Below the pieces are notes generated by a model, which saw only the letters and a program-made list of their open reading frames with translations, did no database searches and was not told the origin of the DNA. A program made the position numbers and the translations under genes. Of a stretch of DNA of 64,000 nucleotides, positions 12,277 through 61,865 are shown one piece after another. Source of the stretch: the human T2T-CHM13v2.0 reference genome, Homo sapiens; the NCBI RefSeq assembly GCF_009914755.1, contig NC_060927.1; one strand, 5' to 3'. Positions within the stretch are counted from its first letter, which is position 1; each line of letters begins with the position of its first letter.

Positions 12277-12424
12277 CACATTTTAACCTTATCATCGATC
12301 TTCTCCACCCTCCACCCATTGGATCGTAAATTCCATGAGAATAGAAATGTGTGCTGCATGTGCGTGCATGTGTGTGTGTGGCCGGGGTGGGGGGTGGGAG
12401 TTTGGCTTAAACAGTACAAATTTA

Positions 12425-12792
<368 letters not shown>

Positions 12793-12912
12793 CTAAAATC
12801 AAGGCTTCAGCAGAGATACACTCATTCTGGAGGCTCTAGGGGAGAATCTGTTTCCAGCTTCTACAGGTCACCTCCATTCCTTGGCTCGTGGTCCCTTCGC
12901 TCCATCTTCAGA

Positions 12913-13908
12913 GCTTAATGAAAAAGTGAGGGAGGCAAGTCTTAATCGGTAGAGGTTTATTTCGCCAGGGTTGAGGACATGGCTGGGAAATACATACGTC
13001 ACTGGAGCATCTGTTACTGGTGCTCTTCCAAAAGGGGGTTTGAGGATTTTTCAGTATTTAAAAGGGAAAGAGCAAGCAAGAGAGAAAAAAAAGGAGGGAG
13101 GGTGGACAAAGATGCAGATGCTTACAGTCTTTATTTATTTATTTATTTATTTAGAGACGGAGTCTCGCTCTGTCGCCCAGGCTGGAGGGCAGTGGCGCGA
13201 TCTCGGCTCCCTGCGAGCTCCGCCTCCCGGGTTCACATCATTCTCTTGCCTCAGCCTCCCGAGTAGCTGGGACTACAGGCACCCACCACTATGCCCGGCT
13301 AATTTTTTGTATTTTTAGTAGAGACGAAGTTTCACCGTGTTAGCCAGGATGGTCTCGATCTCCTGACCTCGTGATCCGCCCGCCTCGGCCTCCCAAAGTG
13401 CTGGGATTACAGGTGTGAGCCACCACGCCCGGCCCAGATGGTTACATTTTTATGAGGCTGTGATCGGCCTCAGGAAATGTACATTTTACGTGTGAAAAGA
13501 GGGCATCAAGGAAAAAGTCAGTTATGCATTCGTCGCAGGGTCAGCCAAGGGATAATTTCTGGTTTTGTCCTTTTCCTCTCCGTGGGAAGATAAGCTGGTA
13601 ATTGACGTTGTCAGGGTGAGATTCAACGGAATTTGGTTTTAGGGCTAGTTTATACAGGGGATATGTATCCTGAAAGATTTAGGGGCTCACAAGGAATTTC
13701 ATTTGTGACGCAGGCCATCTGGGGAGATACGTGGCCTTCTGTCATTGTGGGAACCTGGCTTATGGGTGAGGCTGTGATACAGGGTTGTGAAATTACAGCT
13801 ATCGGTCTGGGAACAAAAGGAAAGCAGTGTTGCGTGACTCAGTTCCCAAGCTTAACTTTTTCTTTGGCATAGGGAGTTTGGAGTCCCAAGATTCTATTTT
13901 CTTTCACG
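12913..13908 (-). mobile_element. MER4-family ERV1 solo LTR, split by AluY
   Basis: Right end 'ttcccaagcttaactttttctttggcatagggagtttggagtcccaagattctattttctttcac' is the reverse complement of the MER4 LTR start. Confidence 0.8.
13130..13434 (-). mobile_element. AluY with (TTTA)n tail
   Basis: 'caccgtgttagccaggatggtctcgatctcctgacctcgtgatcc'; degenerate TSD cagatg(c/g)ttaca. Confidence 0.96.
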
Positions 13909-30163: not shown

Positions 30164-31512
30164 AGGCAAACAGATAGAACATCTTTAATTTGTATGTTTT
30201 TCTCTAAATCTAACTTAGAAAAGTAACTCTTTAATGGCATTTGGGTGTTCATCTTAGTGGTTAAAAATAATTATATCTTATCCCATTTGAATAAAACAAC
30301 TTAAGAAGTTGAATATCTACAATTTGAGGAAGGGGAGCAATTTGAAACATTTTGCTTCGCAAAGATGTTTGCGTCCAGCTTAACTGCTTACCCACCTGAT
30401 TAAGTACCTTATCCATGACTAATGGAGTTGTCGAACATGTGGACTTGCAGAGACTCATGGAATTAAAATGGATGTATCCCCTCCAGAGAGCCCTGTTTCC
30501 TCGAAGGGTAGCTAGCACTGGAGTGGGATGCTGTGTATTCCCACAGGCATGTGCTGACGTGGGAGTTGCTGAAATTTGGAGGCTGAAACATTTTGGCTGC
30601 CTTTGTGCAAACTCAGGTTGTCTGGCATCTGCATCCTCCCAGAATGAGTCATTGTATGTCCATGCTTCATTGATTCTTGCTGAAGGAGATTTGGACAATG
30701 GGCCTGAACCTGCCAAATGAGTTTGGGAAGCCCCAAACACATCGGTAGCTTGTTATATAAGCATCTTGTGCTCAGCAGTTAGGCCTGCCACTGTCTGTGA
30801 TGAGTAGCAGGTCCCTGTCATAGTGACATCCAGATGAGGTTATTTGCTTACCTCTGTGCATGACATGTGAGCCCAAAGATGCTGGACTAGGTCCTCTTCC
30901 AGCAAAATGGTGCGCATTGCCCAGATGGTCTTGCATAAGCTGAGAAAGAATAGAGAAGGCAACGTGTGGCCACTCACCTAGACTCTCATTTGAGCTCCCT
31001 TGTCAGTGCTTTATGAATGTGGAGGATGAAAAGATATCCCAGCATTCTTTGATGAATTGGTTTTAACTCTATATGGAGACCTTCCTGAATCCCAAGATAA
31101 TCTAATCTCTATTTCCACAGCCCATGAACTTATCCTTATAACATCTGAAGTTCAAATTATTTATTTAGAATTTGTGTCCTATACTAGACCTTACATTTCA
31201 TGACAACACGAGTTGCCTATCTTGATCATTGTCATATCTTATGCACTTAGCATAGTACTTGACACATAATGGACATTAAATACATATATGATGAATGAAT
31301 TCACTAGCTGTATCACTTTGGGCAGGTTACTTAATCTCTCGAAACCTAATTCCCCATCTGTTCAATGGTGATAATAATGGTAACCATCTTAGAAAGGGTT
31401 ATATGAGGTAACCCACGAGAAGCTTAGAATTGTGTCTTTTGTTGTTATCATTGATAATAAATAACGAACAATGAATCTTCCCTCTACTTTCAAAAAGGGA
31501 AGTCATATAGAC

Positions 31513-33639: not shown

Positions 33640-34003
33640 AATGACCAGCTTCCATTCTTCAATTTCTCAGCACCATTTGACACAGGCGGTAGATCGCTCC
33701 TCCCTCTGAAATCCTTGTTTCACTTGGCATCCAGGACCGCATAGGCCCCTGGTTTTTTTTTTTTCTAGTCCATCCAGGCCACTTCTTCTCCATTTGTCTA
33801 TTGGGTCCTCCTCCATTCTACAACTTCTAAACTGACCCGGGGCACAGTTTTTGGGCCTTTTTTGTATATGTCCCTTCTTCCTTGGTGTCTTCCTCTAGTC
33901 TATAGCCTTCCAACTTACCTAAACACTGGAGAAGTCATTTATATTTCCAGCCTGAAATTCTCCCAGAATTTGAGTATATTGAATGATATATTCAACACCT
34001 ACC
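33640..34003 (+). mobile_element. L2 fragment
   Basis: 'ctcagcaccatttgacaca', 'cacttggcatccaggac' and 'tatatttccagcctga...atatattcaacacctacct'. Confidence 0.65.
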
Positions 34004-34153
34004 TAGGTCTTTGCAATCTATCCTAGGCAAAAATGTCCTGACTCCAACATATAAATTGTCTTCCCCCTTAGTGAAAGGAGAGGAAAGCAGTGAAGCTTTG
34101 CTGGGCCTATTGATTTGGATGACACGTGTTCTCTGAATCACCTAGAGGGATTC
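34004..34153 (+). repeat. Left arm of a ~150-bp imperfect inverted repeat
   Basis: Manual alignment to the reverse complement of 34848-34998 gives 117/151 identities. Confidence 0.9.
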
Positions 34154-34847
34154 ATTGATTAATTGAGTCATTAATGCACCGATTCATTCATTCAAATATT
34201 ATTTAGTGACTACATCATTTGCCAAGTACCATGCTAAGAATCTAGATAAAATGTTTAGGGCCAATTATCTAGGAAATAAGTTTTCTAAATTAAGTCAATT
34301 CTTAGGAATCACCTTTTGGTTTTCATACTAAACAGGGAATGGAGTATTTCTGAATCATTAATTCCCAAATCAACTTTTCTAAAATATGCATAATCGTTTC
34401 CAAAATGGAGATTTATTTAGATGTCACACAAGATAATTGCAGCTTTGTAAACCTAACCTAAGGGAAATTGAGTTTTCATTCAGAAACCTTATCTTGATTG
34501 CCTAGACATCACCCAGCATCCTCTGACGCCTCTGCTTGATGTCCTTATGTCAGCCTGTCCTCAGGAGAGAAAGAGGAAACTTCACCAAAATGAACAAGGT
34601 CTTTCACCTTCTCCCTTTAGGTTTTAGGAAGAAGCTGTTTATGAAAGTTGTCCTCCAGTGCCCATTGGGAACTTGCAAAAGATCAGTTACTACCGATGGA
34701 CAGTATGTCTGGTCTTTCTCTCTTTTTCCACATATTAAATTGTCATTGTGTCAAATGTCTTGCCATCAAATACGGTGCTGCAAAGAAATTGCAATTATAT
34801 TTATCAGTTTTTTTTCTCTGACCTTTGAATTTCATTCAGTCCACAGA

Positions 34848-34998
34848 GAATCCTTCTCGGTGGTTCAGAGAACATGTGTCATCCAAATCAATAGAGCCAA
34901 CAATCTCTGATTTTTCTCTCCCCCTTTCACTGAGGGGGAGGGCAGTTCATATATTGAAGTCAGAACCTTTTAAGCCTGGAATGGATAGCAAAGACCTA
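34848..34998 (-). repeat. Right arm of a ~150-bp imperfect inverted repeat
   Basis: ggtggttcagagaacatgtgtcatccaaatcaatag is the reverse complement, with 2 transitions, of ctattgatttggatgacacgtgttctctgaatcacc at 34107-34142. Confidence 0.9.
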
Positions 34999-35669
34999 CA
35001 GCTTTAGTGCATGTAATCTTGCAATGCAATAACCTGGTAGTCACGCAATCTGGACCTAGTAACAGGTTACCACAATTCCATATGGAGTTTTCTAGTGTTT
35101 TCATCCTGTCTGCCTAGTATTAATTTTGAGTTTCTGTCTCTGGAAAATTTTGTTTAGATTTTAAAATCTTGGTTTTTGTTCTCTAATCATTTTCTCTCAC
35201 TATAAGATTCTGACTGTCAGAATTAAATATGTTATAAAACTAATGTTTAACCGTAGTCTCATTCCCTACGCCCTGCCCCCTGCCCCGCACCACCCCAATC
35301 ACCTAGAATATTTTGAAGGAAGAAATGGGTGGTGGATAATAGCAGCCAGGTTATCTGGCAGCGCAACCTCATTTTAATATTAGCTAAAGCAGAAATAGTC
35401 AAGAGGGCAAGTCTGCCATGAAAAGTCTTATGAAACATTACAAAGTTAAATGGACCACTAAAAAACGGTAGACAGAAGAGACAGCCAGGTGCTCACCAAA
35501 ATCTTACAGTTGAACTTTAAAAGTCATATATAATGAGCAAGATTAGATGCAAAATCAGCCATAAAAATAAACTATTTCCCAAGACTCAAGGCTAAAGTGC
35601 ACCTAAATCTTATTTATTAGCATGACTGAACTAGCAGCACAGTAAATCGTAATTGCATGTGTCAGTCAC

Positions 35670-43509: not shown

Positions 43510-44395
43510 TATCTCTTCCTGTGCCTAGAATGCACTCTTCTACTTTCTGTTATTGCCTAGTTAACACTTCCTTTTCCTTCAGACCTCGCTCGTATTACCT
43601 CTTACTGAGACTCAATTTCCCTTTTATAGATATTTATAATACTATACACTTTTCCTTTACAGTACCTCATATGATATAATTTCACATTTATGAATGTGAT
43701 TATTTGGCGTCAAGATGGTCTAGAAAGAAAATCTAAATTTCTTATTACATGATCTAGCCCAAACCTTAGCAGCCAATCTCATTTCTTACCACTCCACTCA
43801 CCCATCCCACTGGCCTTTCTGTTCCAGGAAAACACAAATCCTGCTGTTTCCTTAGGGCCTTTGCACTTGATGTTCTCTCTCATTCCCCATTCTTTGTCTG
43901 ACCACTACTTATCATCGATTAGATCTTAGCTCAAGTAATACAAAGAGAGGCCTTCCATGTTTAACCTAAAGAAATTCCATCATCTTTTGTGCCCCCAACA
44001 CACACCAAAAGTCCATTTCTATCATAAGACTGTCCATATTTTCTTCTTAGCACATATTACTGCACTAACTTATCACATTCATATTTGCTTTATTTGCTTT
44101 ATTGTTAGTCTCTCCTTCCACTGAAATGTGAGATCCTTAAGAGTAATGGCATTATTTGTCTTATTTATTGTTGGATACCTAATTCCCAGAAGAGTGCAGG
44201 GCCCACAGTGGATGCTCAGGAAGTATTTGTTGAATTAGTGAATTGAAGAATGGTCATAAACAGAATAAATTGTCTTTTCCAATAGAGTTTAAGTTTCATG
44301 AAGGGAGCAACCGTATCAGTTTTGTTCACTATTGCATCTTTAGTACATTGCCTGACACATAGTAGGTTCTTATTACAAATATGTTTCATGAATGC
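43510..44395 (+). mobile_element. L2 3' fragments (two, nested or tandem)
   Basis: 'cttagggcctttgcacttg', 'gctcaggaagtatttgttgaatt' and a second end 'tgcctgacacatagtagg'. Confidence 0.7.
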
Positions 44396-44808
44396 AATAC
44401 CATATTTGCACTATTAGTGTTTTTGAGCATTCATAGGGACATTTATATTTCAGGGATATTTATGTTCAGACCTGACTGATACACAATATGTGAGCTTTTC
44501 CTCTCAATTCCCTATCATGAGGAAAAGAAATTGGCATCTTATCTCTACCTCCACCCAAAGTAATCGGCAATTTCATTGGAGAAATTTTTAGCCACCACTG
44601 AGACTAGTTCTGCATAAGAAAATTAGACTGAGATCTAGCAATTTACTAGGGCCATCAGTTTAATTATGAATATCCAATGTGAGTAAATCAGACTTCAAAT
44701 GATACATGTTTTTCACCAAATTGCTTAGTAACTCTGTCAACTCTTCCATTCATTGATCTCTAAAATTGGAAGACTTGAGGTGAAATTCCAGTCTCCTAAT
44801 GTGTAGTT

Positions 44809-60905: not shown

Positions 60906-61865
<960 letters not shown>

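What the first reader, a model, noticed from the sequence alone, without database searches (positions are those of the whole stretch)
34004..34998. Unexplained ~150-bp inverted duplication with a 694-bp spacer deep in the CNTN4 intron
Seen: 34004-34153 aligns to the reverse complement of 34848-34998 with 117/151 identities (77%) and one gap; 24 of the 33 substitutions are transitions. The inner core (34107-34142) matches at 34/36, and both differences become G-U wobbles in the sense pre-mRNA, giving a continuous 36-bp helix. The arms match no Alu, L1, MIR, LTR or MER consensus I recognise, although the outer ~50 bp of the left arm may be decayed L2. Both outer ends read TA-GGTCTTTGC. Inference: (a) an old local fold-back duplication that may form a long dsRNA stem (ADAR substrate, small-RNA source or intron-folding element); or (b) an undescribed ~1-kb non-autonomous DNA transposon with long TIRs and a TA target site. 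Caveat: over the full arms, wobble-compatible (13) and A-C (11) mismatches are balanced, so strand-specific structural selection is not shown outside the core.
Basis: partly seen in the sequence, partly recalled or inferred. Interest (0 to 1): 0.8.

Follow-up and report, generated by a model that had tools for sequence, protein, structure and literature searches.

The report
Old single-locus inverted duplication in CNTN4 intron
Two 150-base stretches about 700 bases apart in a CNTN4 intron are decayed reverse-complement copies of each other, found nowhere else in the genome; this is most likely an old local copying accident with no sign of a function.

Summary
34004-34153 aligns to the reverse complement of 34848-34998 with 117 of 151 columns identical, one gap, 24 transitions and 9 transversions. 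This is far above chance: score 171 against 18.4 +/- 3.4, 0 of 500 shuffles. Homology stops sharply at all four ends.

Three exhaustive scans of the whole T2T genome, allowing up to 3 mismatches, used 25- to 34-base patterns on which both arms agree. They found only the two arms, plus two 3-mismatch hits that do not extend. A sister copy of the same age would be seen with P about 0.98. So this is a single-locus repeat, not a transposon family.

The arms do not match my own L2, MIR or Alu profiles. The spacer holds only a weak L2/MIR-like 3' tail.

Both strands fold equally well, at -337.8 kcal/mol. Mismatches split 13 wobble against 11 A-C. The 34/36 core is not significantly better kept (p 0.064).

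Best reading: an inverted duplication about 10^8 years old, from a replication template switch or repair synthesis, decaying neutrally. It can form dsRNA in the pre-mRNA, as the inverted Alu pairs in the same window also should. This is ordinary and of low interest.

The parts
34004..34153 (.). Left arm of the inverted repeat (150 nt)
   Evidence: 117/151 identical to the reverse complement of the right arm; no other copy in the genome.
34848..34998 (.). Right arm of the inverted repeat (151 nt)
34107..34142 (+). Left half of the best-kept core. It forms a 36-bp uninterrupted helix (2 G-U) with 34859-34894 in the sense RNA
   Evidence: longest helix is 36 bp starting at arm position 104. Window permutation p 0.064, so it is not significantly better kept than the rest.
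34859..34894 (+). Right half of the 36-bp core
34154..34847 (.). 694-nt spacer, unique sequence with no inverted homology
   Evidence: inner flanks no better than shuffles. (no other match). (no Pfam match in 7 of 19 stop-to-stop ORFs).
34139..34239 (-). Weak L2/MIR-like 3' tail remnant at the left edge of the spacer. The alignment runs a few bases into the arm, and only about 34175-34239 looks convincing
   Evidence: home-made L2 3' profile positions 621-731, E 4.4 over the window and 0.096 over 1.4 kb. Not significant on its own.

Best explanation
This is a single-locus, old inverted duplication. A ~150-bp piece of the CNTN4 intron was copied once in reverse-complement orientation about 700 bp away. 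The most likely cause is a switch-and-return of the replicating strand to the opposite template (template-switch mutation), or templated repair synthesis at a break. The two copies were identical at birth and have since drifted apart neutrally to 77% identity (Kimura distance 0.27, about 0.135 per arm), which by recalled human-lineage rates is of the order of 10^8 years. Because CNTN4 is read from the + strand, the pre-mRNA contains both arms and is predicted to fold them into an imperfect ~150-bp duplex with a 36-bp perfect core. That makes it a possible incidental ADAR target. This is a by-product of the DNA repeat and not a selected structure. What is shown: the repeat, its sharp ends, its uniqueness in the genome, the neutral-looking substitution pattern and the predicted fold. 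What is inferred: the mechanism of origin, the age, and any editing.
For: Repeat and significance.

Uniqueness: three exhaustive pattern scans of the 3.1-Gb genome (<=3 mismatches) used stretches on which both arms agree. The 30-mer core gave 2 of 2 hits in the arms, control 0. The 34-mer gave 2 of 2 in the arms, control 0. The 25-mer terminus gave 4 hits, the 2 arms plus 2 others at 3 mismatches, control 0. Those two others (L008, L009) show no further likeness and L008, the only one of the two I scanned for this, holds no comparable inverted repeat.

Power: a same-age copy (13.7% diverged) with two ends would be hit with P 0.98, one at 25% with P 0.38, and one at 30% with P 0.16. Families of more than about 10-20 copies are therefore excluded. 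As a positive control for pattern scans, consensus-like motifs of two old families gave 108 and 615 hits against 0 in controls.

No likeness of the arms to my L2 3', MIR or Alu profiles.

Neutral look: ts:tv is 24:9. Both CpGs in the arms sit at mismatched columns. The split is 13 G-U-compatible against 11 A-C mismatches. The 34/36 core has permutation p 0.064 and the longest exact run of 19 has p 0.18. The 995-nt RNA folds at -337.8 kcal/mol on either strand.

Mechanism precedent: template switching creates inverted repeats and whole hairpins in one event and is common in primate introns (PMC5453318, passages read; PMC10710096, abstract read).
Against: Template-switch events described in the passages I read are short (tens of bases, with the template close by). 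A 150-bp copy 694 bp away is larger than what those papers treat, so the exact mechanism is an extrapolation. The arms end outward in TA on both sides, which is what a Tc1/mariner insertion would leave. I could not compare other mammals, so neither the order of events (which arm is the copy) nor the absence of an empty site is shown. No Dfam or RepeatMasker library was on hand. The BLAST-type genome search is blind to old repeats: a true L2 piece of the window found only itself. The negative results therefore carry little weight on their own.
Confidence: 0.62

Rival explanations
1. This is the last recognisable copy of a very low-copy, or elsewhere lost, non-autonomous DNA transposon of the Tc1/mariner kind. 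It would be 995 bp long with 148-bp terminal inverted repeats, inserted at a TA that was duplicated.
For: Long inverted termini with sharp outer ends, and TA just outside GGTCTTTGC on both sides. The size is in the usual range of non-autonomous elements (recalled). The interior is non-coding.
Against: No second copy was found in 3.1 Gb by three exhaustive scans, with P 0.98 of seeing a same-age copy. The TA cannot be told apart from the first two bases of the homology itself. The 8-bp flanks match at 4 of 8 (read), so there is no hAT-type duplication either. There is no transposase remnant (7 of 19 ORFs tested). The termini do not resemble the mariner or pogo ends I recall (recall only, not tested).
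Confidence: 0.2
2. The arms are two independent insertions, in opposite orientation, of the same part of a known old repeat family (L2 or another).
For: A weak L2/MIR-like tail lies next to the left arm.
Against: Two independent copies of a family as old as L2 or MIR would be far less than 77% alike, and a family young enough to give 77% would have been found by the pattern scans. The arms start and stop at the same bases at both ends. The arms score no better than shuffles against my L2 3' consensus (70 to 388 of 1000 shuffles reach the score on full arms). The L2 profile finds nothing in the arms even at E 50.
Confidence: 0.04
3. The hairpin is a selected RNA element of the CNTN4 pre-mRNA, such as an editing site, a small-RNA precursor or an intron-folding aid. 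This concerns function and could hold whatever the origin.
For: The predicted sense-strand duplex is -191.5 kcal/mol with a 36-bp uninterrupted core, against -177.0 and 21 bp on the antisense strand. z-score is -12.3 for the 995-nt RNA (20 shuffles). Both core differences are G-U in the sense strand.
Against: Two of two wobbles has p 0.25. Over the arms the split is 13:11. The whole RNA folds equally well on either strand. Core conservation is not significant (p 0.064). There is no Rfam family: 3 matches, all E > 6 and far below gathering scores. The same window holds longer and better-matched inverted Alu pairs, for example 12409-12730 with 13130-13450 at 87%, so it adds little dsRNA.
Confidence: 0.05

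Closest known systems
Template-switch mutations of DNA replication (four-point model; PMC5453318, PMC10710096)
   Same: A stretch is replaced or inserted as the reverse complement of nearby sequence. This creates an inverted repeat that can fold as an RNA hairpin, in one event, often in introns and at a single locus.
   Different: Described events are short, and the search in the paper used a 14-bp lower bound (passages). Here the copy is 150 bp and lies 694 bp from its template. The ancestral state was not seen, so membership is inferred.
Non-autonomous Tc1/mariner elements (MITE-like, TA target site)
   Same: Terminal inverted repeats, TA at both outer ends, about 1 kb, non-coding interior.
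   Different: Only one copy in the genome. The arms are far longer than the usual 20-40-bp termini (recalled). No related autonomous element was found.
Inverted Alu pairs in introns (endogenous dsRNA, ADAR substrates)
   Same: Two reverse-complement stretches within one intron, predicted to pair in the pre-mRNA.
   Different: It is not made of a dispersed repeat. It is shorter (150 against ~300 bp) and less complementary (77% against 87% for the pair at 12409-13450).
Inverted-duplication origin of hairpin-RNA and young miRNA genes (plants, Drosophila; recalled)
   Same: A fold-back made by inverted duplication, transcribed within a host transcript.
   Different: In that model the arms derive from a target gene elsewhere. 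Here no other homologue exists in the genome and there is no small-RNA evidence.

Membership tests
Tc1/mariner-type non-autonomous DNA transposon | Terminal inverted repeats | tested here: met
   150/151-nt arms, 77% identical, sharp ends.
Tc1/mariner-type non-autonomous DNA transposon | TA target-site duplication flanking the element | tested here: inconclusive
   TA is present at both ends but cannot be separated from the homology of the arms.
Tc1/mariner-type non-autonomous DNA transposon | Dispersed copies in the genome | tested here: not met
   Pattern scans found only the two arms plus two hits that do not extend.
Tc1/mariner-type non-autonomous DNA transposon | Empty site in a genome lacking the insertion | not testable with these tools
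   No other mammalian genome is held.
Tc1/mariner-type non-autonomous DNA transposon | Kinship of termini or interior with an autonomous element or transposase | tested here: not met
   Pfam found nothing at or above cut-off in 7 of 19 ORFs (best E 0.071, unrelated families). No Dfam library is held.
L2 LINE 3' fragment | Significant likeness to the L2 3' region | tested here: not met
   For the arms: best E 11 in 30 copies; no hit at E 50; no better than shuffles. The profile was home-made from 30 copies and covers only the last ~680 bp. The spacer edge gives a weak hit, E 0.096.
Template-switch / local inverted duplication | Reverse-complement copy of sequence nearby on the same chromosome | tested here: met
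   the spacer is 694 nt.
Template-switch / local inverted duplication | No source elsewhere in the genome | tested here: met
   (and 3, 5, 36, which are of low power).
Template-switch / local inverted duplication | Ancestral sequence with one arm only | not testable with these tools
   This needs outgroup genomes.
Template-switch / local inverted duplication | Size and distance within the range of described events | tested here: inconclusive
   The passages read concern short events. 150 bp at 694 bp is larger.
Selected structured RNA / ADAR-edited intronic dsRNA | Stable duplex in the transcribed strand | tested here: met
   (prediction only).
Selected structured RNA / ADAR-edited intronic dsRNA | Strand-specific conservation or compensatory change | tested here: not met
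   13:11 wobble to A-C, equal energy on both strands, core p 0.064. Covariation across species is not testable.
Selected structured RNA / ADAR-edited intronic dsRNA | Observed A-to-I sites, small RNAs or duplex reads | not testable with these tools
   No editing or RNA-seq data are held.
Described RNA family (Rfam 15) | Match at gathering score | tested here: not met
   3 matches, 15.6-19.3 bits against gathering scores of 60-120.

The most novel reading that the evidence does not exclude
The locus is the sole surviving copy in humans of an undescribed eutherian DNA transposon with ~150-bp terminal inverted repeats and a TA target site. Alternatively, whatever its origin, its 36-bp core duplex is an edited or small-RNA-producing element of the CNTN4 pre-mRNA in brain.
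Probability: 0.07. Interest if true: 0.45.

Novelty: new member of a known kind. Interest (0 to 1): 0.18.

Why it matters
It matters little as it stands. It is one more example of how local inverted copying seeds potential RNA hairpins in long introns, the raw material from which new miRNAs and editing sites sometimes arise. CNTN4 is a neurodevelopmental gene, so an edited or processed hairpin there would be worth a look. However, the same window carries stronger Alu-made duplexes, and nothing in the sequence shows selection.

Tried and rejected
- The BLAST-type search of the own genome with the left arm, the right arm and the whole 995 bp found only this locus. A control with a true L2 piece also found only itself, so I give these no weight against old families.
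- The 24-mer mid-arm pattern gave 19 extra hits against 16 in the control, which is chance level, and none extended.
- The first L2 alignments were spoiled by Alu insertions. I removed the Alus with a window-derived Alu profile and rebuilt the profile.
- The MIR profile gave 8 hits at E <= 10 in the window, none inside 33800-35200.
- Scanning 81 other loci (244,916 bases) and the 64-kb window with the arm profile and with the spacer and flank pieces gave nothing beyond the places picked by the patterns. One hit (L030) looks to me like part of an Alu copy, judged by eye from the alignment and not tested with the Alu profile; I judged it noise.
- L008 (contig 4) carries weak likeness to arm 2-45 on one strand and to arm 90-133 on the other (E 0.004 each in 6 kb). 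The two are not collinear and there is no inverted repeat there, so I judged it chance.
- The outward extension of the alignment seen is not above shuffles.
- A literature search for CNTN4 with inverted repeat, intron and dsRNA: none of the 10 papers listed (of 1,053 holding at least 3 of the 4 terms) mentions CNTN4, so the search did not settle whether anything on this locus is in print.

Full report
**Observation.** The window sequence and the repeat finder show the inverted pair at the stated places.
- A global alignment of 34004-34153 with the reverse complement of 34848-34998 has 151 columns: 117 identical, one gap, 24 transitions and 9 transversions (alignment A1).
- The local score is 171 against 18.4 +/- 3.4 for shuffled arms, and 0 of 500 shuffles reach it.
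- Both outer ends read TAGGTCTTTGC.
- The homology is sharply bounded. Outer flanks of 30 to 200 nt and inner flanks of 30 to 340 nt score no better than shuffles. An apparent outward extension in a gapped alignment is therefore not real.

**Is it a repeat family?** The whole T2T assembly that holds the window (3.1 Gb) could be searched.
- BLAST-type searches with either arm and with the whole 995 bp returned only this locus.
- A control showed that this search cannot see old repeats. A 151-nt piece of a genuine L2 copy from the window (43950-44100) also returned only itself. I therefore rest on the exhaustive pattern scans, which come with a reversed-pattern control.
- Three patterns were written on stretches where both arms agree, with up to 3 mismatches allowed:

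| Pattern | Hits | Control |
|---|---|---|
| 30-mer core | 2, both arms | 0 |
| 34-mer from the outer half | 2, both arms | 0 |
| 25-mer terminus | 4: the arms plus two 3-mismatch hits on contigs 4 and 16 | 0 |

- The two extra hits do not extend, and the contig-4 locus (L008) holds no comparable inverted repeat; the contig-16 locus (L009) was checked for extension only.
- A fourth pattern, a 24-mer, was at chance level with 19 extra hits against 16 in the control.
- Power: with the arms' own distance (K2P 0.271, 0.135 per arm), a sister copy with two ends would be caught with P 0.98. At 25% divergence the figure is 0.38 per copy, and at 30% it is 0.16. A family of more than roughly 10-20 members is thus excluded, and a same-age sister copy almost certainly does not exist.
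- Consensus-like patterns do recover old families here: recalled L2 and MIR motifs gave 108 and 615 hits against 0 in controls.

**Is it a known repeat?** No Dfam library is held, so I built profiles from the genome itself.
- I collected 30 L2 3' ends, freed them of Alu insertions and built a profile of 860 positions. Its consensus agrees with the L2 3' end as I recall it.
- The profile finds L2 pieces elsewhere in the window, for example 43723-44256 at E 2.8e-26.
- In the finding it gives only a weak minus-strand hit at 34139-34239 to the last ~60-110 profile positions, the tail that L2 and MIR share. The E-value is 4.4 window-wide and 0.096 in a 1.4-kb search.
- The arms are not L2-like. The arm profile against 30 L2 copies gave best E 11. 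The L2 profile found nothing in the arms at E 50. The arms against the L2 consensus are no better than shuffles.
- A MIR profile and the Alu-containing profile do not touch the region.
- Rfam gives nothing: 3 matches, E above 6, 15.6-19.3 bits against gathering scores of 60-120.
- Pfam gives nothing in 7 of the 19 stop-to-stop ORFs.
- Independent insertions of one family are also excluded by logic. A family old enough to escape the scans would give arms far less than 77% alike, and such copies would not share both end points.

**Selection or drift?**
- The substitution pattern looks neutral, with ts:tv 24:9. Each arm's single CpG lies in a mismatched column.
- The better-kept core is not significant: a 36-column window with 34 matches has permutation p 0.064, and the longest exact run of 19 has p 0.18.
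- The 995-nt RNA folds with the arms paired on either strand at the same energy, -337.8 kcal/mol. The z-scores are -12.3 and -9.5, from 20 shuffles each.
- The isolated arm duplex is somewhat better in the sense strand (-191.5 against -177.0 kcal/mol, 36 against 21 bp uninterrupted). This rests on two wobbles in the core (p 0.25) within an overall 13:11 split.
- In the 64-kb window, 12 inverted pairs lie within 3 kb. The other 11 fall inside intervals that the Alu-containing profile marks at E below 1e-24. One of them is a pair of about 320 bp at 87% (12409-12730 / 13130-13450), which should make a longer and tighter duplex in the same intron.
[quoted passage not shown] Intronic dsRNA as such is commonplace.

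**Explanation.** The best reading is a one-off local inverted duplication that has decayed neutrally.
- Replication template switching is known to write the reverse complement of nearby sequence and to create whole hairpins at once, often in introns (PMC5453318, passages; PMC10710096, abstract).
- The events treated there are short, so applying the mechanism to 150 bp at 694 bp is an extrapolation. Templated repair synthesis at a break is an equally possible route (own knowledge).
- The age, of the order of 10^8 years, follows from 0.135 substitutions per arm and recalled human-lineage neutral rates. It is an inference.
- The main rival is a lone relic of a DNA transposon with long termini and a TA site. 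The TA ends speak for it, and the complete lack of sister copies speaks against it. I give it 0.2.
- A selected RNA role is not excluded but has no support (0.05).

**Limits.**
- No other mammalian genome, no Dfam, and no editing or RNA data were available.
- My L2 profile covers only the 3' ~680 bp of L2.
- The supplements of the cited papers were not opened.
- The literature search shows no CNTN4 among its 10 listed papers (of 1,053 that hold at least 3 of the 4 terms), so it says little about what is in print for this locus. The wider literature was not searched for the locus by coordinate, since only T2T coordinates are known.

Noticed in passing
window 12409-12730 and 13130-13450: Two Alu-like copies in opposite orientation, about 320 bp at 87% complementary with 399 nt between the inner ends. 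This is a stronger predicted dsRNA former in the same CNTN4 intron than the finding.
   Followed up: partly
window 61619-61766 (+): Rfam Metazoa_SRP match at 71 bits, just above the gathering score of 70. It lies inside an interval that my Alu-containing profile hits (61469-61781), so it is most likely an Alu and not a 7SL gene.
   Followed up: partly
window 43723-44256 (+) and 44273-44396 (+): The best-kept L2 3' end of the window by my home-made profile (E 2.8e-26 and 4.8e-10). The second piece repeats the tail.
   Followed up: no
window 31148-31336 (+) and 31301-31446 (-): An L2-type tail (E 1.6e-08) abuts a MIR core on the other strand (E 3.4e-05), close to the RefSeq enhancer at 30740-30789.
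   Followed up: no
L008 1502-1545 (+) and 1611-1651 (-) (contig 4): Weak likeness to arm positions 2-45 and, on the other strand, 90-133 (8.9 and 9.1 bits, E about 0.004 in 6 kb). The two are not collinear and there is no inverted repeat there. Judged chance.
   Followed up: yes
search tool, own genome: The DNA mode of the own-genome search returned only the query itself for a 151-nt piece of a true L2 copy. Its negatives say nothing about old repeat families, whereas pattern scans with the reversed control are exhaustive.
   Followed up: yes
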